From Candidatus Methylomirabilota bacterium (GTDB lineage Bacteria; Methylomirabilota; Methylomirabilia; Rokubacteriales; CSP1-6), in the NCBI GenBank assembly GCA_036506275.1, contig DASXSB010000013.1, forward strand, positions 65,393 through 129,392: 64,000 nucleotides of DNA, read 5' to 3'. This document shows positions 2,270 to 53,206 of this stretch, in pieces. The notes beneath the pieces were generated by a model, which was not told the DNA's origin, ran no database searches, and was given only the letters and a program-made list of their open reading frames with translations. Position numbers and translations under genes: made by a program. Numbering within the stretch: position 1 is the first letter of the stretch; the number at the start of each line of letters is the position of its first letter.

Positions 2270-2521
2270 CTAGGGAAGGATGACGTCGCGCTCGATCGGG
2301 TCGACCTGCACCCCACGCCCCTTGAGCCACGCCACGCCGCGCGCGAGCGTGGCCTCGTCCGCTTCCAGCTCCAGCGCCACCCAGCCGTAGTCCGCCTTCA
2401 CGTCGGCGCGACGGATGTTGATGACGATGTCGAAGTCCTTCACGAGACGGTAGAGGATCGGTTCCTGGATCAGCGCAGGCGGGAACGTCAGGCGCAGGCG
2501 CATGCGGCTCATGATCGCCAT
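2270..2521 (-). CDS. NIL-domain small protein (ferredoxin-like fold found C-terminal in MetN), partner of the sulfur-carrier system
   Basis: 83 aa: MAIMSRMRLRLTFPPALIQEPILYRLVKDFDIVINIRRADV...ALELEADEATLARGVAWLKGRGVQVDPIE. The pattern resembles a standalone NIL domain. It lies immediately downstream of the MoaD-like gene on the same strand. Confidence 0.55.
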   Translation of the reverse strand: MAIMSRMRLRLTFPPALIQEPILYRLVKDFDIVINIRRADVKADYGWVALELEADEATLARGVAWLKGRGVQVDPIERDVILP

Positions 2522-2527
2522 CCGGCC

Positions 2528-2806
2528 TCAGCGTCCTCCGGCGATGGCGGGCACGATCGACACCTCGTCACCGTCCTTGAGCGTGGTCGTCTTCGCCTGG
2601 AGGAACCGGATGTCCTCGCCGTTGACGTAGACGTTGATGAACCGCCGCAGCTCACCCGTGTCGTCCACGAGCCGCTCCCGGAGCCCGGGGAACTGGCGGT
2701 CGAGATCCTCCACGACGTCGGCCACGGTATCGCCCTTCGCCTGCACTTCGGCGTTGCCCTTGGTGAGGGAGCGGAGCGGTGTGGGAACCCGGACGAGCAC
2801 GGCCAT
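2528..2806 (-). CDS. MoaD/ThiS/CysO-like sulfur-carrier protein (C-terminal GG)
   Basis: 92 aa beta-grasp-like sequence ending ...VSIVPAIAGGR, with a Gly-Gly near the C-terminus. It is separated from the thrC-like gene stop by 9 nt. Confidence 0.8.
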   Translation of the reverse strand: MAVLVRVPTPLRSLTKGNAEVQAKGDTVADVVEDLDRQFPGLRERLVDDTGELRRFINVYVNGEDIRFLQAKTTTLKDGDEVSIVPAIAGGR

Positions 2807-2815
2807 GCGTCCTCC

Positions 2816-4063
2816 CTACGTGGTCTGCGATTTGAGGTTGGCGAGAGCCCGGTCGAATTCCGACAGCGAGGGACGAATGGTGACGTCCGTTTCCAGGCGG
2901 TCGTAGAGCGCGTCCGGCGTCTTGAGCCCGTTGCCCGTGATGCAGATCACCACGGACTCGTCGCGCGGGATGACACCGGTCTCGATGAGCTTCTTGGTGG
3001 TGGCGACGGTGACGCCGCCCGCGGTCTCCGTGAAGATGCCTTCCGTGCGGGCGAGCAGCAGCATGCCCTCGATGATCTCCGCATCGGAGACGTGAGCGCC
3101 GTAGCCGCCGGAGTCCTTCACCGTTCGATACGCGTAGTACCCGTCGGCGGGATTCCCGATGGCAAGCGACTTCGCGATCGTGTCCGGACGCACGGGCACC
3201 AGCACGTCGGAGTCGTTCTTGATCATGGTGACGATGGGGCCGCAGCCGGCCGCCTGCGCCGCGTGCATGCGCGTGCGCACGTCGCCCTCGATGAGGCCGA
3301 GCATCTTCAGCTCCTTGATCGCCTTCCAGATCTTCGTGATGAGGGAGCCGCCCGCGCACGGCACCACGATGTGGGCGGGCGTCCGCCAGCCGAGCTGCTC
3401 CACGATCTCGAAGCCGTAGCTCTTCGAGCCTTCCGAGTAGAACGGCCGGAAGTTCACGTTCACGAAGGCCCAGTGGTACTTGTCGGCGATCTCCGAGCAC
3501 AGGCGATTGACCTCGTCGTACGTGCCGTGCACGGCCACGAGCGTGGGGTTGTAGACCAGCGTGGCCAGCACCTTCCCCTGCTCGAGGTCGGCGGGGATGA
3601 AGATGTAGGACTTGAGACGCCCTTCCGCCGCGTGCGCCGCCACCGAGTTGGCGAGATTGCCCGTGGAGGCGCAGGCCACGGTGTCGAAGCCGAACTCGCG
3701 CGCCTTCGTGACCGCCACCGACACCACGCGGTCCTTGAACGACCACGTCGGATGGCACACGGAGTCGTTCTTGACGTAGACCTCCGCCACGCCGAGCTCG
3801 TCGGCGAGATTGCGCGCGCGGACGAGCGGCGTGAACCCCACCGCATGGCCGACGGCGACGTCGCCCTCGATGGGCAAGAGGTCCTTGTAGCGCCACATGC
3901 TGGGCGGGCCCGCTTCGATGGAGCGACGGGTCACCACACGCGCGAGCACGTCGTAGCGATAGTCGACCTCGAGGGGGCCGAAGCAGAACTCGCAGACGTG
4001 GACGGGGGAGGCGGGATACGCCCGGCCGCACTCGCGGCACTTCAGTCCTTTGAGCTTCTCCAT
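2816..4063 (-). CDS. threonine synthase-family fold-II PLP enzyme with N-terminal Cys4 zinc-ribbon (MetM-like candidate)
   Basis: HPTWSFKDR carries the PLP-lysine motif of ThrC, and ACASTGNLANS is also ThrC-like. The N-terminus has CRECG...CEFCFG. The preferred start is ATG 4063 (MEKLKGLKCRECG), which has a GGAG SD; the track start at 4111 sits too close to the predicted -10. Confidence 0.85.
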   Translation of the reverse strand: MEKLKGLKCRECGRAYPASPVHVCEFCFGPLEVDYRYDVLARVVTRRSIEAGPPSMWRYKDLLPIEGDVAVGHAVGFTPLVRARNLADELGVAEVYVKNDSVCHPTWSFKDRVVSVAVTKAREFGFDTVACASTGNLANSVAAHAAEGRLKSYIFIPADLEQGKVLATLVYNPTLVAVHGTYDEVNRLCSEIADKYHWAFVNVNFRPFYSEGSKSYGFEIVEQLGWRTPAHIVVPCAGGSLITKIWKAIKELKMLGLIEGDVRTRMHAAQAAGCGPIVTMIKNDSDVLVPVRPDTIAKSLAIGNPADGYYAYRTVKDSGGYGAHVSDAEIIEGMLLLARTEGIFTETAGGVTVATTKKLIETGVIPRDESVVICITGNGLKTPDALYDRLETDVTIRPSLSEFDRALANLKSQTT

Positions 4064-4127
4064 GCACGCGTCTCCATCGGTAGGGGATTTGAGCCCCGAG
4101 TTGGACAGCACCGACAGCCAGACATTT

Positions 4128-4162
4128 CGATTATTTAACGTTCAACTGAACGTGAAGTCAAT
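4128..4162 (-). promoter_or_regulatory. sigma70-like promoter (TTGACT-N18-TAAATA) with embedded perfect palindrome ACGTTCA-N2-TGAACGT
   Basis: The minus strand reads ttgacttcacgttcagttgaacgttaaataat in an AT-rich island just upstream of the thrC-like/MoaD/NIL operon. The palindrome occupies the spacer between the -35 and -10 elements. Confidence 0.5.
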
Positions 4163-11909: not shown

Positions 11910-12755
11910 CTACCGGTGGCGGAGGTGCAGGGCGAAGAACTCCTTGACGCGCTGGTGGGCGTCGGCCGCCGCCGCTGGATCGTAGCCGACGGTGGCGCCG
12001 CAGCAGCCGCCCGGGAGATTGTCGTTTTCCACGTCGGACAGGAATTGCCGCGGCATCCCCTCGACGTCGAAGTAGTGGACGTCGCCGTGGTAGAGCACGA
12101 TCGAGACGTCGGCGCCGCGACGCCGCATGTTCGCGGCCACCTCCACGCACGGGCCCGCCTGCGTCCAGTCGTCGACGTCGCCCATGAGGATCAGGAGCGG
12201 CCGCACCGCCAGCTCGTTCACGAGCGACTCGCAGCCCCCCGGATACATGCCGACGGCGGCCGCGAATCCGGGCTCGGGAATGACCACGCCGCGCGCGCGC
12301 GTCCGATCCAGGCTGGGGCCGTTGACGGCGGCCATCGAGAAGACGCCGCCGTTCGACCAGCCGATCACGCCCACGTGGGCGGCATCGACCGCCGGCCGCG
12401 CGTGCAGGTAGCGGAGGGCGCCGATGAGATCGTCGAACCGCTCCGTCGACGGCACCTCCGGCGCCTCCCGCACGCAGCCGTTCGGAATCCCGCGCGCCGC
12501 CCAGCTGTCCACGACGAGCGCGACGTAGCCCTCGCTGCGGAACCATCGCGCCCACTCGCGTGTGGACGGTAAAACGCCATGGCAGCCGTGCAGGAGCACG
12601 ACGGCGGGGAACGGCCCCTGCCCGTGCGGCATGAAGATCTGCGCCGGCACCTGGCGCGACGCCCCCGGCGTGGCGTTGGGGAAGACAAGAGTGGGGCTTG
12701 CACACCCGCAAAGGACGACCGCGGCGATCAGGGTCGCCAGGGCATGCCCGAACAT
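11910..12755 (-). CDS. dienelactone hydrolase-family alpha/beta hydrolase, lipoprotein
   Basis: 281 aa with lipobox AVVLCGCAS, then HGCHG, GWSNGG (nucleophile elbow) and a DLH-like C-terminus. Confidence 0.8.
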   Translation of the reverse strand: MFGHALATLIAAVVLCGCASPTLVFPNATPGASRQVPAQIFMPHGQGPFPAVVLLHGCHGVLPSTREWARWFRSEGYVALVVDSWAARGIPNGCVREAPEVPSTERFDDLIGALRYLHARPAVDAAHVGVIGWSNGGVFSMAAVNGPSLDRTRARGVVIPEPGFAAAVGMYPGGCESLVNELAVRPLLILMGDVDDWTQAGPCVEVAANMRRRGADVSIVLYHGDVHYFDVEGMPRQFLSDVENDNLPGGCCGATVGYDPAAAADAHQRVKEFFALHLRHR

Positions 12756-12796
12756 GGGTTTGAGGATACACCGCCGCCCGCGTAGAATCCGCAGAC

Positions 12797-13417
12797 GTGG
12801 GTGACGCTGTTCGTCTCGTCGTCTATTCCGACTATCTCTGACCGTGGTGCTATCCGGCGGCCGTGCGCCTCCGGCGACTCTCCGAGGAGCTCGGCTCCCG
12901 GCTGACCATCGAGCATCGCGCGTTTCCGCTGCGCCCTGCCCCTGATCCGAGCGTGCGTTTCAAGGGCACCTACCGCGAGGAAGGCTGGCGGCGCTGCGCT
13001 CGCATGTCGGCGGCGGACGGCATCACGTTCACCCCGTGGCCGCACGACACGTTCGCCACGTGGAGTCTCCCCGCTCTCGAAGCCGCCAAATGCGTGGCGC
13101 GGCAGGGCGACGAGGCGCTCTTCGAGCGTGTCCACCTCCGGCTCTACGAGGCCTTCTTCCGCGACAGCCGCAACATCTCCGATCGCGACGAGGTGACCCG
13201 CATCGTCGCCGAAACCGCCGTCGACATACCGCGCTTCACCGCCGATTACGCGTCCGGCGTGGGACGCGAGGCCGTGCTCGCCGACTATCGCGCGGCGGTG
13301 ACCGAGGAGGGCGTACAGGCGATTCCCACCGTGATCGTCGAGGCAACGGGAGAGCGCCTGGTCGGCCTCGCCGACGCCGCCACCTATCGTGCCGCAGTCG
13401 AGGAGGCGGCCGCCTAG
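12797..13417 (+). CDS. DsbA/FrnE-like thioredoxin-fold oxidoreductase with in-frame TGA (candidate selenocysteine, UPWC active site)
   Basis: The reading frame from GTG 12797 gives VGDAVRLVVYSDYL-[TGA 12839-12841]-PWCYPAAVRLRRLSEELG...GVQAIPTVIV (cis-Pro loop). The TGA sits exactly where the first Cys of the CPWC motif belongs. The track shows only the 3' part, from GTG 12863. A TTGAGG-N17-TAGAAT promoter-like sequence lies at 12753-12787. Confidence 0.6.
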
Positions 13418-13420
13418 CGC

Positions 13421-15682
13421 GTGATCGCGCTGCCCTCCGCTCCCCTCCTGTTCGGTCGCGACGCCACCGCCGGCATCGTGGCCGTCGAGCTCGAGCCCGA
13501 TGGTCGCTCCGTACGCGTCTACCGCCGCGAGGGCGACGACCTTCGCGTCGAGATCGAGCCCTTCGCGCCGTGGGCCCTCGTCGGCGATCGCGCGCTCCTG
13601 GACGACGCCCCCAGCGTGACCGGAGTCACGCGCCTCGCGGGCGGCGGCGCCCTCGCCTGGCTCGCGCGCTTCCGCGCCTGGTCGGACGCGCTCGCCGCCC
13701 GCGACCGCTGGCGCGCCCGCCACCCCGGCGGCGCCGCGAGCGCGCCGTTCCTGTTCCCGGCCGACGCCGTGCACCAGTACCTGCTCCAGAGCGGCCGCAC
13801 GTTCTTCAAGGACCTCCGCTTCGGTGATCTGCGTCGGATGGCGCTCGACATCGAGGTCCTCACCACCGAGGGCTTCGACTTTCCCACCGCCGAGCGGGAC
13901 GGCGATCGCATCATCGCCGTCGCCCTCGCCGACTCCTCCGGCTTTCGCCACGTCGTGCGCGGCGATCGGCTCTCGGAGCGCGAGCTGCTCGAAGAGTGCG
14001 TGCGGCTCGTGCGCGAGCGTGACCCCGACGTCCTCGAAGGCCACAACATCTTCCGCTTCGACCTCGAGTACCTGGAAGCGCGCGCGCGCCGCCACGACGT
14101 GCGCCTGGCGTGGGGTCGTGACGGGAGCGCGCTCCGCGGTTATCCCGCACGGTTACAGATCGCGGAGCGGACGATCGGATACCGCCGCTACCAGGTCGCC
14201 GGCCGCCACATCGTCGACACCTGGATGCTGGCCCAGCTCCACGACGCGGGCACGCGCGATCTGCCGTCGTTCGGATTGAAAGATCTCGCGCGCCACTTCG
14301 GCGTGGCCGCCGGCGAGCGGACGTATCTCGATCCCGCCGCCATTCCCCGCGTCTTCCGCGACGATCCCGAGCGCCTCATGGCCTACGCCATCGACGACGC
14401 GGTGGAGACCCTCGGCATCGCCCGCGTGCTCGCACCGCCGTACTTCGCCCAGGCCCAGATGCTGCCGTACGACTTCCAGTCGACCACGCTGCGCGGCGCC
14501 GCCGCCAAGATCGACGCCCTTCTCCTGCGCGAGCACCTCGCGCGCGGCCACGCGGTGCCCATGCCCGGCCCCGCGCGCCCCGTGGGCGGCGGCCACACCG
14601 CGATCTTCCACCAGGGCGTGGCGCGGCCGGCGCTCCATGTCGACGTCACCTCGCTCTATCCCTCGCTGATGCTCGCGCTCGACATCGCGCCCGCCGCCGA
14701 CGATCTCGGCGTCTTCCGCGAGTTGCTCGGTCACCTGCGCGAGTTTCGCGTGAGCGCCAAGCGCCTGGCCCGGGAGGCGCGCGACGAGGCGGAGCGCTTG
14801 CACTTCCATGCTCTCCAGCAATCGTTCAAGATCCTCATCAACGCGTTCTACGGATACCTCGCCTTCGGCGACGCCCACTGGAACGACTTCACCGCCGCCG
14901 ATCAAGTGACGACGGAGGGGCGGCGGGTGGTGGGAACGATCCTGGACCGCCTGCGCGAGCTCGGCGCCACCCCGATCGAGGTCGACACCGACGGCGTCTA
15001 TTTCCTGCCCGCCGACGATCATGGGGCCGACGACGACGACGCGCTCGTGGAACGGCTCATGGCGGACTTGCCGCCGGGAATCAATCTCGAGCTGGATGGG
15101 CGCTACGCGGCGATGCTCAGCTACAAAATGAAGACGTACGCGCTGCTCGACGGCCGCGGCCGACTCACGCTCCGCGGATCCGGTTTCCGCTCGCGCGGTC
15201 TCGAGCCGTTCGCGCGGGCGCTCATCCGCGAGATCGTGCAGTTGCTCGTCCTCGGCCGGCCCAAGGACGTCAAGGCCGTGATCGACCGCTGGCTCGCCGA
15301 CTTCGCCGCCCACCGCGTTCCGCTCCAGGCCTTCGCCCGCACGGAAACGCTGCAGGACTCGCTCGACACCTACCGCGAGCGCGTGCAGGCGGGCGCCCGC
15401 AACCCGTCCGCATGCTACGAGGTGGCGGCGGCCTCCGGGCGCGCGTTCATCCCGGGCGATCAGGTGTCGTACTACGTGAGCGGACGGGGAGCGCGGGTGG
15501 CGGTGAGCGAGTGCGCGAGGCTCGCCGATCTCTGGGACGCGGCGGCGCCCGACGAGAACGTCGAGTTCTATCAGAGCAAGGTGGTGGAAATCGCCGAGCG
15601 CTTCCGCCCGTTCCTCGACTACGAGGGTCTACGTCCCTATATAGAGGACGTGCCCGAGGACCCCCAGCTCAGCCTCTTCTGA
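13421..15682 (+). CDS. polB: family B DNA polymerase (DNA polymerase II-like) with 3'-5' exonuclease domain
   Basis: 753 aa with Exo I DIEVLT, Exo II NIFRFDLEYL, Exo III YAIDDAVET, and polymerase motifs DVTSLYPSLM (A), KILINAFYGYLAF (B), DTDGV (C). Confidence 0.9.
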   Translation: MIALPSAPLLFGRDATAGIVAVELEPDGRSVRVYRREGDDLRVEIEPFAPWALVGDRALLDDAPSVTGVTRLAGGGALAWLARFRAWSDALAARDRWRARHPGGAASAPFLFPADAVHQYLLQSGRTFFKDLRFGDLRRMALDIEVLTTEGFDFPTAERDGDRIIAVALADSSGFRHVVRGDRLSERELLEECVRLVRERDPDVLEGHNIFRFDLEYLEARARRHDVRLAWGRDGSALRGYPARLQIAERTIGYRRYQVAGRHIVDTWMLAQLHDAGTRDLPSFGLKDLARHFGVAAGERTYLDPAAIPRVFRDDPERLMAYAIDDAVETLGIARVLAPPYFAQAQMLPYDFQSTTLRGAAAKIDALLLREHLARGHAVPMPGPARPVGGGHTAIFHQGVARPALHVDVTSLYPSLMLALDIAPAADDLGVFRELLGHLREFRVSAKRLAREARDEAERLHFHALQQSFKILINAFYGYLAFGDAHWNDFTAADQVTTEGRRVVGTILDRLRELGATPIEVDTDGVYFLPADDHGADDDDALVERLMADLPPGINLELDGRYAAMLSYKMKTYALLDGRGRLTLRGSGFRSRGLEPFARALIREIVQLLVLGRPKDVKAVIDRWLADFAAHRVPLQAFARTETLQDSLDTYRERVQAGARNPSACYEVAAASGRAFIPGDQVSYYVSGRGARVAVSECARLADLWDAAAPDENVEFYQSKVVEIAERFRPFLDYEGLRPYIEDVPEDPQLSLF

Positions 15683-19415: not shown

Positions 19416-19870
19416 TGGGCGTGCCCGCAGCAATTCGCGCCATGACCCCGCGCGCCCTCGTGGTGCCGCTTCTGACGAGTGCCATCCTCCTCGTCGGCGC
19501 CGCCCCCGCCGCTCCTCCCGACGCCCCCGTGAGCTTCATCAAGGTCGAGGAGCTCAAGCGTCTCCTCGACGCGCGGACCAAGGCCGACATCATCGACGTC
19601 CGCCACTGGGAGCAGTTCTCGGAGGTTCACATCAAGGGCGCGCGCTCGATGCCGCTGCGCGCGGTGCCGGAGCGCGCGCGCGAGATCAGCAAGAGCGGGC
19701 TCGTCGTCTTCTACTGAACGTGCCCGCATGCCCTGGCCCGGGGGGCCAGCAACATCCTGTACGGGCTCGGGTGGCGCAATCACCGCGTGCTCGAGGAAGG
19801 GTTGCCGGGGTGGATCGACCGCGGCTACCCGGTGGAGGGCACCAACCCCACCGCTCCGCCCGGCCACTGA
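19409..19870 (+). CDS. secreted single-domain rhodanese with in-frame TGA at the catalytic loop (candidate selenoprotein)
   Basis: The ATG overlaps the moeA stop. The N-terminus has a signal-like hydrophobic segment. Rhodanese motifs read IIDVRHWEQFSEVHIKGARSMPL...SGLVVFY-[TGA 19715-19717]-TCPHALARGASNILYGLGWRNHRVLEEGLPGWIDRGYPVEG. The reading frame is continuous and the sequence past the TGA is conserved rhodanese C-terminus. A GC hairpin ctggccc-ggg-gggccag lies 16 nt downstream of the TGA (19733-19749). Confidence 0.6.
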
Positions 19871-20868: not shown

Positions 20869-22437
20869 TCAGCTCTCTCGGTAGAAGATCAGGAAGACGC
20901 CGACGAGGCTGAACGCCCACGCCCACAGGCGTCCGGGGACCGCATCGTCCGGCGGCGCCATCCGCAGCTCGAGCCAGCGCGCCCACCCGGCCATCAGGCC
21001 CAGCACACCGAGCGGCGCGTGGGTGATCTCGATGAGGAACTCGGACTTGAGATCGCCCAGCGCGTGCGAGTGCGTGAGCAGGAGGGCGCCGCCCACGGCG
21101 CACAGCAGCGGGAAGACGAGGGCGGCGCGCCGGTGGCCCAGGCGTCCCGCCCGCACCCGCCACTCGAAGAGCCCGAAGCCGACCACGAGCAGCACGAACA
21201 GCCGGTGCTGGAGGACCTCTGCGTAGCCGAAGCTCTCCCAGAATCCGAGCGGTCCCAGCGGCCACGCGCCCGGGTCGTTGCGCACGAGCAGGAACGCCGC
21301 GAGGCCGAGGAACACCAGCGGCCAGTGTCGCGCCCACTTCCCCCACCGCGCGCGATGCACGAGGGCGAGCACGCCCATGGTGAGCACGAAGAACCCCGCC
21401 ATGTGGTGGTTGTACTCGGACCACGCGCGGTCGGCGGCCGTGCGCGGAGCGTCGCGATCCTCCACCGGCAGCTCCGTGATCGGCGGCGACGAGAGCCGCG
21501 GCCACTGCGGCGTGAACCGGCCCGCTACCTCGGCCACGCTCGCGCGGTCGGCCACGTCGATGGCGGGCGGCATCGACGTCAGGGAGGCGGCGGCGAAGAG
21601 CACGGTGAGGCCGAGCCCCAGCTCCACCTCGACGAAGCGCCGCACGCGCGTCACGCCGACGTCGGCGCCGTCCCGGAGGCGCCGGACGGCGAGGAAATTG
21701 GCGGCGCCGAGCACGAGGAGCAAGGCGAGCAGCACGACCTTGGTGATCACCATCACTCCGTACGAGGTGCCGAGCAGCGCGGATGTCCCGTCGATGTACT
21801 GCGCGGAGAGCGCGACGCCCGCCACCACCAGCGCCGCCACCGCCGCCAGCGCCATCGCCGAGAATCGGCGGAGCATCGACATCGGCCACGGCGCGCCGGG
21901 ACCGCCGAGAACGGCGGCGGTGAGGTGCACGAGGCCACCCACCCACACCGCCGCCGCCAGCTGGTGGGTGGCGTCGAGCGCGGTCGGCAGGAGGCGGTGA
22001 TCGAGGCGCGCCATGGCATGGCTGAGCGACGCCGCGCTCGCGGCGAGCAAGATGGCAAGAGCGCCGAGCGTCCACGACGCCGCCGTCCCCTGCCCGCGGC
22101 GCCGCACCGTCAGCGCCGTCACCGCCAGCGCCGCGCAGATGGCCATCCGCATCACGGTCGCGCGGAAGTACGTGGTGCCGGAGAGCTCCGCCAGCGGCCA
22201 TCCGCTGCCGTCATCGAGCGCCGCCAGGTGCACGCCGAGGGCGAGGCATTGCGCGACGGCGACGCCGACGGCGCCCGCCGTCACGAGCACGAGCGAGCGC
22301 CGGACGAGCGCGGTCAGCGTGGGCGGAGGAAGCCCGGCCGGCCGAAGGACGAGCAGGATGAAGAAGACGCCGCCGACGGCGATCGCCTGGCTCGCGAGCG
22401 CGATACCGCGCAGGAGGACATCGAGAAAGCCCGCCAC
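20869..22437 (-). CDS. CopD-family membrane protein fused to a CtaG/caa3-assembly-like C-terminal domain
   Basis: 522 aa. The N-terminal half is a CopD-like helix bundle. The C-terminal half (SEYNHHMAGFFVLTMG...THSH) resembles CtaG. Confidence 0.6.
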   Translation of the reverse strand: MAGFLDVLLRGIALASQAIAVGGVFFILLVLRPAGLPPPTLTALVRRSLVLVTAGAVGVAVAQCLALGVHLAALDDGSGWPLAELSGTTYFRATVMRMAICAALAVTALTVRRRGQGTAASWTLGALAILLAASAASLSHAMARLDHRLLPTALDATHQLAAAVWVGGLVHLTAAVLGGPGAPWPMSMLRRFSAMALAAVAALVVAGVALSAQYIDGTSALLGTSYGVMVITKVVLLALLLVLGAANFLAVRRLRDGADVGVTRVRRFVEVELGLGLTVLFAAASLTSMPPAIDVADRASVAEVAGRFTPQWPRLSSPPITELPVEDRDAPRTAADRAWSEYNHHMAGFFVLTMGVLALVHRARWGKWARHWPLVFLGLAAFLLVRNDPGAWPLGPLGFWESFGYAEVLQHRLFVLLVVGFGLFEWRVRAGRLGHRRAALVFPLLCAVGGALLLTHSHALGDLKSEFLIEITHAPLGVLGLMAGWARWLELRMAPPDDAVPGRLWAWAFSLVGVFLIFYRES

Positions 22438-51356: not shown

Positions 51357-52031
51357 CTACTGTCGCGGCGGGCGGGCGGTGAGTGTGGCGACGTCGAGGC
51401 CGGCCGCCGCCAGGGCCTCGAGGAAACGCTTCGTGGCGTCGGCGGGAGCCGCCGCGCCCAGGATGGCGGAGATCACCGCCACACCGGTGGCGCCGGCGGC
51501 GCAGACGTCCTCCACGCGCTCCGGGGTGATGCCGCCGATCGCGATCACGGGAATGCGCACCGCCGCCGCCACGTGCTCGAGGGCGCCCAGGCCTTGCGGC
51601 GGACCATAACCGCGCTTCGACGCGGTGTCGTACACGGGCCCGAAGACGACCCAGTCGGCGCCGCTCGCCTCCGCCTCCACCGCGTCGGCGAGCGAATGAA
51701 CGGAGGCGCCGATGAGGAGCCGTGACCCCGCGATCGCTCGGATGTCCTCCACCGGCAGCGACACCGACGTCCGCTGCACGCCATCGGCGCCGACGGCGAG
51801 CGCGACGTCCACGCGATCGTTGACGATCAGCAGCGCGTCGGGAGCGAGGGCGCGGAGCCGACGAGCGAGGGCGGCGAGATCGGCAGCGGCGAGGTCCTTC
51901 TCCCGAAGCTGCACGGCCGGAAGCCCGGCCGCCACGCACTCCCGCACCACGTCGGCGAGGTCACGCCGCCCCGTGTGCACGCGGTCCGTGACGAGACAGA
52001 GGGCGGGCGCGCGCCGTCTCAGCTCGTCCAA
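51357..52031 (-). CDS. thiE: thiamine-phosphate synthase ThiE
   Basis: LCLVTDR..., [24 protein letters not shown] start is proposed near 52031, overlapping the thiG end. Confidence 0.75.
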
Positions 52032-52840
52032 TCGGGAACGCCCTCGAGCGGCGAGGAGGCGGTGGCGTAGAGCTTCTTGCCGATGCGACCCGCGCGGTAC
52101 GCGAGGCGCCCCGCCTCCACGGCCAGCCGCATCGCGCGCGCCATCGCGGCCGGATCGCCGGCGCCGGCGATGGCGGTGTTCATGAGCACGCCGTCGCAGC
52201 CGAGCTCCATGGCGATGGCGGCGTCGGATGCGGTGCCCACGCCGGCATCCACGATCACCGGCACCGACACCGACTCCAGGATGATCTTGATGTTGTACGG
52301 GTTCCTGATGCCGAGGCCGGAGCCGATGGGCGCGCCGAGCGGCATCACGCACGCCGCCCCCGCCTCCTCCAGACGTTTGGCGATGACGGGATCGTCGTTC
52401 GTGTACGGCATCACCACGAACCCGTCGCGCGCGAGCGTGCGCGTCGCCTCCAGCAAGCCGTGCACGTCCGGAAACAACGTGCGCACGTCGCCGATGACCT
52501 CGAGCTTGACCATCTCCCCGAGCCCCGCCTCCCGCGCGAGGTACGCGGTGCGGACGGCCTCGTCGGCGGTGTAGCAGCCGGCCGTGTTCGGGAGCAGCGT
52601 GTAGCGGGTGGTGTCGATGTGATCCAGGATGGAGTCGCCGCTGCCGGGCAGGCTCACGCGTCGCACGGCGACGGTCACGATTTGGGCGCCGGACTCCTCG
52701 TGGGCCTGGCGCATGACGTCGTTGGACGAGTACTTCCCCGTGCCCACGATGAGCCGCGAGCTGAATTCCTTGCCGCCCAGGACCAGGTTCGTGTCGTGCA
52801 TCTCAACCCTCCGCGCCCGCGCGGGCGGCGCTCCGTTCAT
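52019..52840 (-). CDS. thiG: thiazole synthase ThiG
   Basis: [17 protein letters not shown] and [12 protein letters not shown] are ThiG motifs. An ATGA overlap joins it to the thiS stop. Confidence 0.9.
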
Positions 52841-53055
52841 CCACCGCCCATGGGGCGGACGATCTCGATCTTGTCGCCGGGGGCCAGCCGCGTGGAGGCG
52901 TAGTGGCTCTTCGGCGTCACGTCGCGGTTGACGGCGACGGCGGTGAACTCGCGCTTCACCCCGAGGTGACTCAAGAGGTCGTCGACCGTGAGACCGTCCG
53001 GAACCTCCATCGTCTTCCCGTTCACCACGATCGTCACGCGCGCGCCCTCAAACAC
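52837..53055 (-). CDS. thiS: sulfur-carrier protein ThiS
   Basis: 72 aa ending in GGG. A GTG start at 53055 is preceded by a GGGAG SD. Confidence 0.85.
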
Positions 53056-53102
53056 GAACGGCCGCTCCCGTCACCGGGCGCGGCCGTGATGCTCTTCGCC
53101 GC
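53056..53102 (-). promoter_or_regulatory. riboswitch expression platform: hairpin GGCCGC-GCCCG-gtga-CGGGAG-CGGCC sequestering the thiS SD
   Basis: The hairpin at 53060-53085 contains GGGAG, the only SD candidate for the GTG at 53055, and is followed by guucguguuug. Confidence 0.5.
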
Positions 53103-53178
53103 GTTCCCTTCGCTGGGATTATCCAGTGCAGGTTCGAGGGGTCCCGGGCCGCACCCGGTTCTCAGGAGACCTCCCCCC
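53103..53178 (-). ncRNA. TPP (THI-box) riboswitch aptamer
   Basis: The minus strand reads ggggaggtctcCTGAGAaccgggtgcggcccgggACCCctcgaACCTGcaCTGGATAATcCCAGCGaAGGGAac. This matches the conserved CUGAGA and ACCUGAUCUGGAUAAUGCCAGCGAAGGGA THI-element blocks and lies directly upstream of thiS. Confidence 0.85.
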
Positions 53179-53206
53179 ACGGCAGACTCGAAGTATACGC
53201 GCGGAT

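What the first reader, a model, noticed from the sequence alone, without database searches (positions are those of the whole stretch)
12797..13417. DsbA/FrnE-like oxidoreductase with TGA exactly at the first active-site cysteine (UPWC): candidate selenoprotein
Reading from GTG 12797 gives ...RLVVYSDYL-TGA-PWCYPAAVRLRRLSEELG..., the canonical DsbA/FrnE N-terminus (hhhYSDxxCPWCY), with the TGA at 12839-12841 in place of the first Cys codon. The frame is continuous and the downstream sequence, including the cis-Pro IPTVIV loop, is an intact DsbA fold. The track reports only the 3' part, which would lack the catalytic motif entirely. A stop landing by chance on the redox Cys codon is improbable, and UxxC is the classic selenoprotein active-site configuration. 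A second such case occurs in the same window at 19715. No obvious SECIS hairpin is visible within 40 nt here; only weak 4-5 bp stems. A TTGAGG-N17-TAGAAT promoter ends only 9 nt before the GTG, so the mRNA may be leaderless.
Basis: partly seen in the sequence, partly recalled or inferred. Interest (0 to 1): 0.85.

Follow-up and report, generated by a model that had tools for sequence, protein, structure and literature searches.

The report
DsbA/FrnE-like selenoprotein gene, misannotated as truncated
The in-frame TGA is very probably a real selenocysteine codon in a cytoplasmic thiol-disulfide oxidoreductase, an already known type of bacterial selenoprotein that databases routinely annotate as a truncated protein.

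Summary
GTG 12797 to TAG 13417 is one frame, with TGA at 12839-12841 in ...VVYSDYL-U-PWCY... The protein is a DsbA-fold oxidoreductase (Pfam DSBA, E 1e-16). The TGA aligns with the first Cys of the CPWC motif of FrnE.

- All 78 related loci that cover the N-terminus, from different species, keep TGA at this codon. Most are Rokubacteria/Methylomirabilota, with some Nitrospinota, Tectomicrobia and Binatia. Identity falls to about 43%.
- The peptide is under purifying selection on both sides of the TGA.
- More distant homologues (28-40% identity) carry CPWC.
- A hairpin lies at 12854-12874 (-11.1 kcal/mol), with GU in its loop 20-21 nt after the UGA.
- Synonymous sites in the hairpin stems are frozen (entropy 0.47 against a median of 1.36, p 1.4e-4). 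Sites in the loop vary freely.
- TGA is also the commonest normal stop codon in the window.
- The rhodanese gene at 19715 shows the same pattern in 19 of 19 copies.
- Two relatives encode SelD with its own Sec-TGA within 7 kb.

No selA, selB or tRNA-Sec could be checked for this genome. DsbA-like UxxC selenoproteins have been known since 2005, and Methylomirabilota is known to be rich in selenoproteins. This is therefore a new member of a known kind and of moderate interest.

The parts
12760..12788 (+). Sigma-70-like promoter, TTGAGG-N17-TAGAAT. The -10 hexamer ends 8 nt before the start codon and no Shine-Dalgarno sequence follows, so the mRNA is probably leaderless.
   Evidence: the only match in 12600-13500, with 0.1 expected; a -10-like hexamer lies 5-10 nt before the start in 43 of 79 loci, and 41 of these lack an SD. 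The -35 and -10 sequences are conserved across Rokubacteria loci.
12797..13417 (+). Full coding sequence of the DsbA/FrnE-like selenoprotein: 206 codons including Sec15. It has no signal peptide, so it is predicted to be cytoplasmic.
   Evidence: The start 14 codons before the TGA matches the ATG position in most homologues. The AlphaFold model of the full-length homologue P0005 has pLDDT 86.8, and its best PDB neighbour is FrnE with TM 0.80.
12839..12841 (+). TGA read as selenocysteine (U15). It is the first, nucleophilic residue of the U-P-W-C redox motif and is followed by C (UGA-C context).
   Evidence: TGA in 79 of 79 sequences. It aligns with the first Cys of CPWC in FrnE 5CNW. Distant homologues have Cys here.
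12848..12850 (+). TGC encoding Cys18, the resolving cysteine of the UxxC motif.
   Evidence: Invariant Cys, encoded by TGC or TGT, in 79 of 79 sequences.
12854..12874 (+). SECIS-like hairpin CCGG-C-GGC-CGUGC-GCC-U-CCGG. It has a 4-bp lower stem, a 1x1 internal loop and a 3-bp upper stem (4 bp in most relatives). The apical loop contains the invariant G25 U26 at 12863-12864 and starts 20 nt after the UGA.
   Evidence: The MFE of the 21-mer is -11.1 kcal/mol. 86.7% of cells are paired across 76 distinct sequences, against 41-58% for slid registers. Four-fold synonymous sites in the stems have entropies of 0.10-0.69 against a median of 1.36 elsewhere, MWU p 1.4e-4. The loop sites have 1.03 and 1.48.
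12863..12865 (+). GTG that ORF finders take as the start of the truncated 184-aa ORF. It is Val23 and lies in the apical loop of the hairpin, so it is not a conserved start codon.
   Evidence: One search lists the ORF 12863-13417. At this codon 53 of 79 homologues have GTC or GTT, which cannot initiate translation.
13325..13327 (+). CCC encoding the cis-proline (P177) of the thioredoxin-fold active-site loop (A-I-P-T-V).
   Evidence: I176, P177 and V179 are invariant in alignment A1. The residue precedes strand 177-180 in the model.
13421..15682 (+). Family-B DNA polymerase gene. It starts 3 nt after the selenoprotein stop codon and probably shares an operon with it.
   Evidence: Pfam DNA_pol_B and DNA_pol_B_exo1. 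The gene lies immediately downstream on the same strand in at least 50 related loci.
19442..19870 (+). Second selenoprotein gene in the window, supporting Sec decoding in this organism. It is an exported rhodanese-like protein with TGA at 19715-19717 at the catalytic Cys position (VVFY-U-TCPH). A 7-bp hairpin at 19733-19749 has a GGG loop starting 22 nt after the UGA.
   Evidence: Pfam Rhodanese, E 7e-14. TGA is kept in 19 of 19 copies and the hairpin is conserved. Database homologues are cut at 89-91 aa, and a Cys homologue, P0271, reads VVFYCTCPH.

Best explanation
Window 12797-13417 encodes a 206-residue cytoplasmic DsbA/FrnE-like thiol-disulfide oxidoreductase. Its active site is Sec15-Pro-Trp-Cys18.

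Proposed mechanism:
1. The UGA at 12839-12841 is recoded as selenocysteine by the standard bacterial route.
2. SelB, carrying GTP and Sec-tRNA(Sec), binds the hairpin at 12854-12874. The GU-containing apical loop of that hairpin starts about 20 nt after the UGA.
3. SelB delivers Sec to the ribosome in competition with RF2.
4. The selenolate at the N-terminus of helix 1 acts as the attacking nucleophile, and Cys18 resolves the intermediate by forming a selenenylsulfide.
5. The gene is transcribed from a promoter whose -10 hexamer lies 8 nt before the GTG, so the mRNA is probably leaderless. It is probably co-transcribed with the family-B DNA polymerase gene that starts 3 nt after its stop codon.

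Shown here: the frame, the fold family, conservation of the TGA, the Sec/Cys pairing with homologues, the hairpin with its synonymous-site constraint, and the synteny.

Inferred only: actual Sec insertion, SelB binding, redox chemistry, substrate, the leaderless start and the operon.
For: - Frame and family: (DSBA, 61.8 bits). One search aligns the TGA with the first Cys of FrnE CPWC. Searches give a model with pLDDT 86.8 and FrnE as top PDB neighbour at TM 0.80.
- TGA conservation: 79 of 79 sequences at identities down to about 43%.
- The upstream 14 codons are under protein-level selection, including a TCN/AGC switch at the Ser codon.
- The truncated-ORF start is not conserved.
- Cys homologues with YSDYLCPWCY exist at 28-40% identity. 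Their downstream peptide varies, whereas PWC[YF]PAAVRL is invariant in the TGA forms.
- Hairpin: -11.1 kcal/mol, 86.7% of cells paired against 41-58% for slid registers, and stem synonymous sites frozen (p 1.4e-4) while loop sites vary.
- In the Methylomirabilis clade, three synonymous changes rebuild a 6-bp stem in a register shifted by one around the same GU loop.
- TGA ends about 27 of 46 coding-like ORFs in the window, so it is not reassigned genome-wide.
- The second selenoprotein gene keeps its TGA in 19 of 19 copies and has a Cys homologue.
- SelD (TIGR00476, 405 bits) has TGA in its GAG-U-xCK motif in L057 and L060, 5-7 kb from the DsbA-like gene.
- Literature: DsbA-like (COG2761) UxxC selenoproteins are described in PMC1088965. 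PMC13188914 reports a Methylomirabilota MAG with 63 predicted selenoprotein genes.
Against: - No selA, selB, selD or tRNA-Sec is present in the 64-kb window, and no selA, selB or tRNA-Sec in about 1.1 Mb of related loci (probes validated). At this sampling depth that is expected, but the machinery remains unverified for this genome.
- The hairpin shows no compensatory covariation because it is almost invariant.
- RNAalifold did not recover the hairpin.
- In these 70% GC genes, 23% of arbitrary in-frame positions pass generic bSECIS criteria, so passing them is weak evidence on its own.
- The window's own variant (GCC GUG) has only 3 bp in the upper stem, below the 4-bp minimum of the published model.
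- One homologue, P0005/L081, has AGA (Arg) at this codon.
- There is no protein-level or selenium-labelling evidence.
Confidence: 0.88

Rival explanations
1. The TGA is a nonsense mutation, a pseudogene lesion or a sequencing error in an ordinary CPWC DsbA/FrnE gene.
For: A single TGA in a single window cannot exclude this on its own. Two database relatives show single-base variants at such codons: AGA in L081 and Arg in the rhodanese homologue P0270. Errors or mutations at these codons therefore do occur.
Against: TGA is at the same codon in 79 of 79 independent assemblies from different species and phyla, with no TGC or TGT among sequences above about 40% identity. Purifying selection acts on both sides. 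The downstream RNA element is conserved.
Confidence: 0.01
2. Translation stops at the TGA, and the functional product is the annotated 184-aa protein initiated internally at GTG 12863. That product would be a DsbA-fold protein without a redox motif.
For: This is what gene callers report for the window and for almost all database homologues.
Against: - The internal GTG is GTC or GTT in 53 of 79 homologues, and the called starts differ between homologues, giving lengths of 163-185 aa.
- The product would lack strand 1 and the active site.
- The 14 upstream codons are conserved in frame at the protein level.
- The conserved promoter sits directly in front of the upstream start.
Confidence: 0.03
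3. The UGA is recoded, but to an amino acid other than Sec. One route would be Cys delivered by SelB with a non-canonical tRNA-Cys(UCA). Another would be Trp or Gly from a suppressor tRNA.
For: SelB-dependent Cys insertion at Sec codons by a non-canonical tRNA-Cys has been described (Vargas-Rodriguez et al. 2018, as cited in PMC13582414). Sequence data alone cannot tell Sec from Cys insertion, and the tRNA set of this genome was not available.
Against: - TGA is the commonest ordinary stop in the window, so there is no general reassignment.
- Relatives with the same gene encode SelD, the selenophosphate synthetase needed for Sec synthesis, and that SelD itself carries a TGA at its catalytic position.
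- The phylum is reported to hold large selenoproteomes (PMC13188914).
- Trp or Gly at the nucleophile position of a CxxC fold would abolish the chemistry.
Confidence: 0.06

Closest known systems
DsbA-like selenoprotein family, form 1 (PF01323 / COG2761, UxxC), first found in the Sargasso Sea metagenome (Zhang, Fomenko, Gladyshev 2005, PMC1088965; listed in PMC13188914)
   Same: Same Pfam domain. Sec is the first residue of a UxxC motif at the DsbA active site. A SECIS hairpin with G in the apical loop lies just downstream, and Cys-containing homologues are widespread.
   Different: I could not retrieve the published representative (NIP15863.1) to measure identity. The clade found here is mainly soil and groundwater Rokubacteria/Methylomirabilota rather than marine. 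It has an almost invariant U-PWC[YF]PAAVRL and hairpin, and it sits in a conserved pair with a family-B DNA polymerase gene. No NCBIfam model covers it: the best match is NF041057 at 44 bits against a cut-off of 190.
FrnE of Deinococcus radiodurans (PDB 5CNW, 5CO3), a cytoplasmic disulfide oxidoreductase/isomerase
   Same: It is the closest solved fold (TM 0.80) and sequence match. It has the same hhhYSD-x-x-CPWCY N-terminus, no signal peptide, and a thioredoxin fold with a helical insertion and a cis-Pro loop.
   Different: FrnE has Cys rather than Sec. It also carries a C-terminal Cys-containing tail that is absent here, where the protein ends ...YRAAVEEAAA. Identity is only about 18%.
Escherichia coli fdhF SECIS, the bacterial SelB-binding hairpin
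   Same: The hairpin lies inside the coding sequence a few nucleotides after the UGA, with a small apical loop holding a conserved G-U. In fdhF, from my own recollection of the literature, these are G23 and U24. Here they are G25 and U26 counted from the U of UGA.
   Different: The stem sequence differs. It has no bulged U, but a C/U 1x1 internal loop. The loop is GUN or CGUGC rather than GGUC. Binding to SelB is untested.
DsbM (Pseudomonas aeruginosa cytosolic disulfide reductase), YjbH, and kappa-class GST / HCCA isomerase
   Same: They belong to the same cytoplasmic DsbA-like structural subgroup (TM 0.70-0.79).
   Different: All use Cys or Ser at the active site, and they are functionally diverse. 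None is known to be a selenoprotein.

Membership tests
Bacterial selenoprotein gene (Sec-UGA with bSECIS) | An in-frame UGA that aligns with a Cys in homologous proteins (a Sec/Cys pair). | tested here: met
   The TGA aligns with the first Cys of CPWC in FrnE. Homologues at 28-40% identity read YSDYLCPWCY, for example P0139, P0145, P0160 and P0177.
Bacterial selenoprotein gene (Sec-UGA with bSECIS) | The UGA and the coding sequence on both sides of it are conserved across species. | tested here: met
   TGA in 79 of 79 sequences. Upstream YSDYL and downstream PWC[YF]PAAVRL are conserved, with synonymous variation upstream.
Bacterial selenoprotein gene (Sec-UGA with bSECIS) | bSECIS model of PMC13188914 Fig. 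2A: an apical loop of 3-9 nt and an upper stem of at least 4 bp. | tested here: inconclusive
   The window has a 5-nt loop (CGUGC). Its upper stem is only 3 bp, followed by a 1x1 internal loop and 4 further bp. Most relatives (GCG GUC) have a 4-bp upper stem and a 3-nt loop.
Bacterial selenoprotein gene (Sec-UGA with bSECIS) | [quoted passage not shown] | tested here: met
   The loop is C-G-U-G-C, with G at position 2 followed by U. The spacing is 20 nt and the MFE is -11.1 kcal/mol. However, 23% of control positions in these GC-rich genes also pass the generic criteria.
Bacterial selenoprotein gene (Sec-UGA with bSECIS) | The RNA element is under selection independently of the protein. | tested here: met
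   Third-position entropies at stem codons +5, +6, +9, +10 and +11 are 0.61, 0.10, 0.29, 0.66 and 0.69, against a median of 1.36 at 77 other four-fold sites (MWU p 1.4e-4). Loop codons +7 and +8 have 1.03 and 1.48. No compensatory pairs were found.
Bacterial selenoprotein gene (Sec-UGA with bSECIS) | selA, selB, selC (tRNA-Sec) and selD are present in the same genome. | not testable with these tools
   Only 64 kb of this genome is available. None of these genes is in the window (probes validated). Relatives L057 and L060 carry selD with its own Sec-TGA. Sec use in the phylum is known from the literature (PMC13188914, PMC13582414).
Bacterial selenoprotein gene (Sec-UGA with bSECIS) | Selenium is physically incorporated at the UGA position. 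| not testable with these tools
   This needs 75Se labelling or mass spectrometry.
DsbA-like thioredoxin-fold family (Pfam PF01323; COG2761 FrnE subgroup) | A match to the DSBA profile above the curated threshold. | tested here: met
   61.8 bits against a cut-off of 25.6, covering residues 7-200 of 206.
DsbA-like thioredoxin-fold family (Pfam PF01323; COG2761 FrnE subgroup) | A thioredoxin fold with an inserted helical domain, a CxxC-type motif at the N-terminus of helix 1, and a cis-Pro loop. | tested here: met
The model has strand 4-10, helix 17-28, helices 57-168 and strands 177-188, with pLDDT 86.8. FrnE, YjbH, SCO1869 and DsbM are the top PDB neighbours. UPWC lies at residues 15-18, and I176-P177 is invariant.
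FrnE sensu stricto (Deinococcus radiodurans DR_0659) | A C-terminal Cys-containing tail in addition to CPWC. | tested here: not met
   The protein ends ...ATYRAAVEEAAA with no Cys after C99. It is FrnE-like in fold but is not an FrnE orthologue.
Periplasmic DsbA (oxidant of exported proteins) | An N-terminal signal peptide and CPHC-type motif, with DsbB as partner. | tested here: not met
   Strand 1 begins at residue 4-5, so there is no signal peptide. The motif is UPWC. Periplasmic DsbAs are much weaker structural matches (TM 0.5-0.6).
NCBIfam NF041057 Rcas_1661 thioredoxin-like (seleno)lipoprotein | A score above the curated cut-off of 190 bits. | tested here: not met
   44.1 bits, and the match covers the C-terminal half only.

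The most novel reading that the evidence does not exclude
This may be a distinct, obligately Sec-containing FrnE-like clade. No Cys orthologue is seen above about 40% identity, and the U-PWC[YF]PAAVRL motif and SECIS are almost frozen across several phyla. The gene is transcribed without a leader and is probably translationally coupled to a family-B DNA polymerase gene in at least 50 species. That arrangement would point to a selenium-dependent redox partner of a DNA repair or replication enzyme. The neighbouring exported rhodanese has a U-x-C active site, a motif absent from the five rhodanese selenoprotein forms listed in the 2026 review. It could be an uncatalogued form.
Probability: 0.2. 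Interest if true: 0.5.

Novelty: new member of a known kind. Interest (0 to 1): 0.35.

Why it matters
It corrects a systematic annotation error. Nearly all of the closest database entries for this protein, and for the neighbouring rhodanese, are cut at the UGA and so lack their catalytic residue. NCBI calls one of them a 182-aa 'DsbA family protein'. No NCBIfam model exists that would let annotation pipelines rescue them.

It also adds two conserved selenoprotein genes to the already large selenoproteome reported for Methylomirabilota/Rokubacteria. It supplies a well-sampled natural SECIS (79 sequences) for that lineage. Finally, it reveals a conserved gene pair of a selenoprotein and a family-B DNA polymerase that could be tested for a functional link. 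None of this overturns current understanding of Sec decoding.

Tried and rejected
- **Single-sequence folding.** Folding 62-91 nt after each TGA gave z-scores near zero in this 71% GC DNA, so it was uninformative.
- **RNAalifold on the 79-sequence alignment.** It returned a meaningless 4-pair structure at -2.9 kcal/mol.
- **Alternative hairpin registers.** Model A (18-22 with 27-31) has 90% of cells paired, but it leaves the constrained sites at codons +10 and +11 unexplained and scores only -6 to -7.3 kcal/mol in the window. Model B scores -5.0. Model C was kept at -11.1.
- **Covariation.** None was found under any model, because the element is too conserved.
- **Generic bSECIS criteria applied to MFE folds.** 50 of 79 true sites pass, against 23% of control positions. 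This is enrichment but not proof.
- **Search for Sec machinery.** ARAGORN found no tRNA in the window and no tRNA-Sec among the 3 tRNAs in the window plus loci.
- **Pfam scan of about 40 window ORFs.** No sel genes were found.
- **Rfam on the window.** Only a TPP riboswitch was found.
- **Other in-frame TGAs with coding signal on both sides.** 2528-2530(-) is the ThiS stop followed by a NIL-domain gene. 20869-20871(-) is the junction between the CopD-like gene and the LPG-synthase-like gene. 8941 and 39259 lie in antisense frames. All four were rejected as selenoproteins.
- **Source genome.** The window's own protein is not in the protein collection (best hit 89%), so the source genome could not be traced.
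Full report
**1. Observation**

Reading from GTG 12797 gives VGDAVRLVVYSDYL*PWCYPAAVRLRRLSEELG..., ending at TAG 13415-13417. TGA at 12839-12841 is the only in-frame stop. A mechanical ORF list reports only 12863-13417, 184 aa. With Cys in place of the stop, the 206-residue protein matches Pfam DSBA (PF01323) over residues 7-200 at 61.8 bits, against a cut-off of 25.6. Against PDB sequences the best matches are YjbH (6GHB) and FrnE of Deinococcus radiodurans (5CNW). The TGA falls exactly on the first Cys of their CPEC and CPWC motifs. The window is 69-73% GC throughout.

**2. Is the TGA accidental?**

Of the 120 closest proteins in the 5.8-billion-protein collection, nearly all are 163-185 aa and cover only 75-89% of the query. 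They start after the TGA. Only one covers the full length (sequences).

I scanned one genome per GTDB species using peptide patterns taken from the middle of the protein, which are neutral with respect to the N-terminus. This returned 80 loci. Most are Candidatus Rokubacteria/Rokuibacteriota and Methylomirabilota, including NC10. Single loci come from Binatia, Nitrospinota, Tectomicrobia, Entotheonellaceae, a 'Proteobacteria' MAG and Haliangiales.

All 78 loci that cover the N-terminus have TGA at the identical codon, at protein identities to the window from 76% down to about 43%.

The codons upstream of the TGA are under protein-level selection:
- Asp -3 is invariant but encoded by GAC (58) or GAT (21).
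- Tyr -2 is encoded by TAC (49) or TAT (29).
- Ser -4 is encoded by TCN (43) and AGC (22), two codon families that are not one mutation apart.

The GTG at 12863 that ORF finders use as a start is GTC or GTT in 53 of 79 sequences. No conserved internal start exists. A pseudogene, a sequencing error and an internally initiated truncated protein are therefore all untenable.

**3. Sec/Cys pair**

An exhaustive HMMER search of 1.84 billion cluster representatives with the downstream 184 aa found 305 relatives. Those above about 40% identity that cover the query's N-terminus begin at their own residue 1-2, so they are cut in the same way. From about 40% identity downward, many have a 22-30 residue N-terminal extension. 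These read ...VVYSDYVCPWCYVASARL...VIYSDYLCPWCYVASTRL...VFSDYLCPWCYNAAVRI and so on.

This is the classic criterion for a selenoprotein family: UGA in one clade and Cys in its homologues at the redox position. The residues after CPWCY vary in the Cys forms. In the TGA forms, PWC[YF]PAAVRL is invariant. That points to a constraint beyond the protein.

**4. The SECIS**

Counting the U of UGA as column 1, columns 16-36 (window 12854-12874) are CCGGCGGCCGUGCGCCUCCGG.

- The minimum-free-energy fold of this 21-mer is ((((.(((.....))).)))) at -11.1 kcal/mol.
- In the commonest variant (GCG GUC) it is ((((.((((...)))).)))) at -12.7 kcal/mol.
- G25 and U26 are invariant, and the apical loop starts 20-21 nt after the UGA.
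- Across 76 distinct sequences, 86.7% of cells form standard pairs in this register, against 41-58% when the 3' partners are slid by 1-3 columns.
- There is no compensatory covariation, because the element hardly varies. The structure is therefore not proven by covariation.

The informative signal is at synonymous sites. Among four-fold degenerate codons with a conserved amino acid, third-position entropies are 0.61, 0.10, 0.29, 0.66 and 0.69 at codons +5, +6, +9, +10 and +11. All five lie in the proposed stems. The two loop codons, +7 and +8, have 1.03 and 1.48. The median at 77 other sites in the gene is 1.36 (Mann-Whitney p = 1.4e-4).

In the Methylomirabilis clade (L050, L053, L054, L058, L077), three synonymous changes (G18 to C/U, C30 to G, C33 to G) together produce a perfect 6-bp stem. 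Its register is shifted by one, around the same GU-containing loop. The hairpin is maintained even where the sequence changes.

I compared the hairpin with the published consensus bSECIS model (PMC13188914, Fig. 2A). That model requires a loop of 3-9 nt, an upper stem of at least 4 bp, G in the first two loop positions, 16-37 nt of spacing and MFE of -7.5 or lower. The window meets the loop, G, spacing and energy criteria. Its upper stem is only 3 bp before a 1x1 internal loop, whereas most relatives have 4 bp.

A caution applies. In these GC-rich genes, 23% of arbitrary in-frame positions also pass such criteria, against 63% of the true sites under the same automatic test. The criteria alone are weak evidence. 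The synonymous-site pattern carries the argument.

**5. Does this lineage decode UGA as Sec?**

- TGA terminates about 27 of 46 coding-like ORFs in the window. The codon is therefore not reassigned genome-wide, and recoding must be local.
- The window has no tRNA genes.
- tblastn with E. coli SelA, SelB and SelD found none of the three in the window, and no selA or selB in the 1.1 Mb of related loci.
- The same search did find selD in L057 and L060, 5-7 kb from the DsbA-like gene.
- That SelD scores 405 bits on TIGR00476, against a cut-off of 125. It reads ...LSHGAG-TGA-ACK... at the catalytic Cys/Sec position. A Sec-containing SelD requires the full Sec machinery.
The rhodanese-like gene at 19442-19870 (Pfam Rhodanese, E 7e-14) has TGA at 19715-19717 at the catalytic Cys position.
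- Eighteen related loci carry the same rhodanese gene a few kilobases downstream of the DsbA-like gene, and all have TGA at that codon. They share a conserved 7-8 bp hairpin (window 19733-19749, loop GGG or GUG, 22 nt after the UGA).
- Rhodanese homologues in the database are nearly all cut to 89-91 aa. One 59%-identical homologue, P0271, reads VVFYCTCPH.
- The literature supplies the rest. Sec-containing hydrogenases occur in Methylomirabilota (PMC13582414). A Methylomirabilota MAG is reported to hold 63 predicted selenoprotein genes (PMC13188914, citing Deng et al. 2026).
- The machinery in this particular genome remains unverified, because only 64 kb is available.

**6. What the protein is**

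There is no signal peptide, and strand 1 starts at residue 4-5. An AlphaFold model of the 68%-identical full-length homologue P0005 has mean pLDDT 86.8 and pTM 0.82. It shows a thioredoxin fold with a large helical insertion.

The best solved neighbours are FrnE (TM 0.80), YjbH, SCO1869, DsbM and kappa-class GST/HCCA isomerase. Periplasmic DsbAs match far less well.

The protein therefore belongs to the cytoplasmic FrnE/COG2761 branch of the DsbA superfamily, with U-P-W-C in place of C-P-W-C. It lacks FrnE's Cys-containing C-terminal tail. Two further Cys residues, C67 and C99, are invariant, and their role is unknown.

The likely chemistry is inferred from the fold family. The selenolate of Sec15 attacks a substrate disulfide, or an oxidised thiol, and Cys18 resolves the intermediate through a selenenylsulfide.

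**7. Context**

- The TTGAGG-N17-TAGAAT site at 12760-12788 is the only promoter-like match nearby and ends 8 nt before the GTG.
- Both hexamers are conserved in the relatives. 43 of 79 loci have a -10-like hexamer 5-10 nt before the start, and 41 of these lack a Shine-Dalgarno sequence. In another 15 loci the -10 lies further upstream and an AGGAGG follows. A leaderless mRNA is thus plausible.
- The divergent dienelactone-hydrolase gene (11910-12755, minus strand) starts 41 bp away. It appears to have a mirror-image -10 about 7 nt before its own ATG.
- A family-B DNA polymerase gene (13421-15682) starts 3 nt after the selenoprotein's stop. It occupies that position in at least 50 loci.

**8. 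Comparison with what is known, and verdict**

DsbA-like (COG2761) selenoproteins with a UxxC motif and a downstream SECIS were described from the Sargasso Sea in 2005 (PMC1088965). They are listed as 'DsbA-like protein form 1' in a 2026 review (PMC13188914). The mechanism proposed here is the textbook bacterial one.

What is new is modest:
- A large clade, apparently always Sec-containing, centred on Rokubacteria/Methylomirabilota.
- It is uniformly misannotated as truncated.
- No NCBIfam model covers it.
- It has a nearly frozen SECIS.
- It forms a conserved pair with polB.

I rate it as a new member of a known kind, with interest 0.35. Its claim that no SECIS is visible is wrong, and its interest score was too high.

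Noticed in passing
window 19442-19870 (+); TGA 19715-19717; hairpin 19733-19749: An exported rhodanese-like protein has Sec at the catalytic Cys position (VVFY-U-T-C-P-H). TGA is kept in 19 of 19 copies, and a Cys homologue (P0271) reads CTCPH. The U-x-C motif is the reverse of the C-x-U of NCBIfam NF041203 rhodanese_LYCAU, which it matches at only 49 bits against a cut-off of 115. It is not among the five rhodanese selenoprotein forms listed in PMC13188914. Nearly all database homologues are cut to 89-91 aa.
   Followed up: partly
window 13421-15682 (+): A family-B DNA polymerase gene starts 3 nt after the selenoprotein stop codon. It lies immediately downstream on the same strand in at least 50 related loci, so this is a conserved FrnE-like selenoprotein and polB gene pair.
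   Followed up: partly
window 12756-12796 (intergenic) with 11910-12755 (-): The 41-bp divergent intergenic region seems to hold two back-to-back promoters. The plus-strand -35 (TTGAGG, or TTGAGC in relatives) overlaps a minus-strand -10-like TATCCT (TATGCT in relatives), which lies about 7 nt before the ATG of the dienelactone-hydrolase gene. Both genes may therefore be leaderless. The arrangement is conserved in many Rokubacteria loci.
   Followed up: partly
L057 about 3280-3285 (-) and L060 about 2830-2850 (-): The SelD genes (TIGR00476) of two relatives carry TGA at the catalytic position (LSHGAG-U-ACK). They are annotated or ORF-called as N-terminally truncated. They lie 5-7 kb from the DsbA-like selenoprotein gene.
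   Followed up: yes
L081 529-531: One metagenomic homologue (P0005, a 1.5-kb contig) has AGA (Arg) instead of TGA at the Sec codon, while keeping the SECIS-like sequence. The rhodanese homologue P0270 likewise has Arg at its Sec position. These may be sequencing errors or inactivating variants.
   Followed up: partly
window 2270-2815 (-): A ThiS/MoaD-like gene ends ...AIAGGR-TGA and is followed in the same frame by a NIL-domain ORF. This looks like read-through but is two adjacent genes. A PLP-dependent enzyme gene (2816-4141) lies just upstream of them, so this may be a sulfur-carrier cluster.
   Followed up: partly
window 53087-53187 (-): A TPP riboswitch (Rfam RF00059, 56 bits) lies directly upstream of thiG (52019-53047, minus strand). 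This is an ordinary arrangement.
   Followed up: no
window 12995-12997 and 13091-13093 (Cys67, Cys99): Two further cysteines in the helical insertion are invariant across the family. They could form a second redox or metal site. Their positions in the model could not be measured with the tools available.
   Followed up: no
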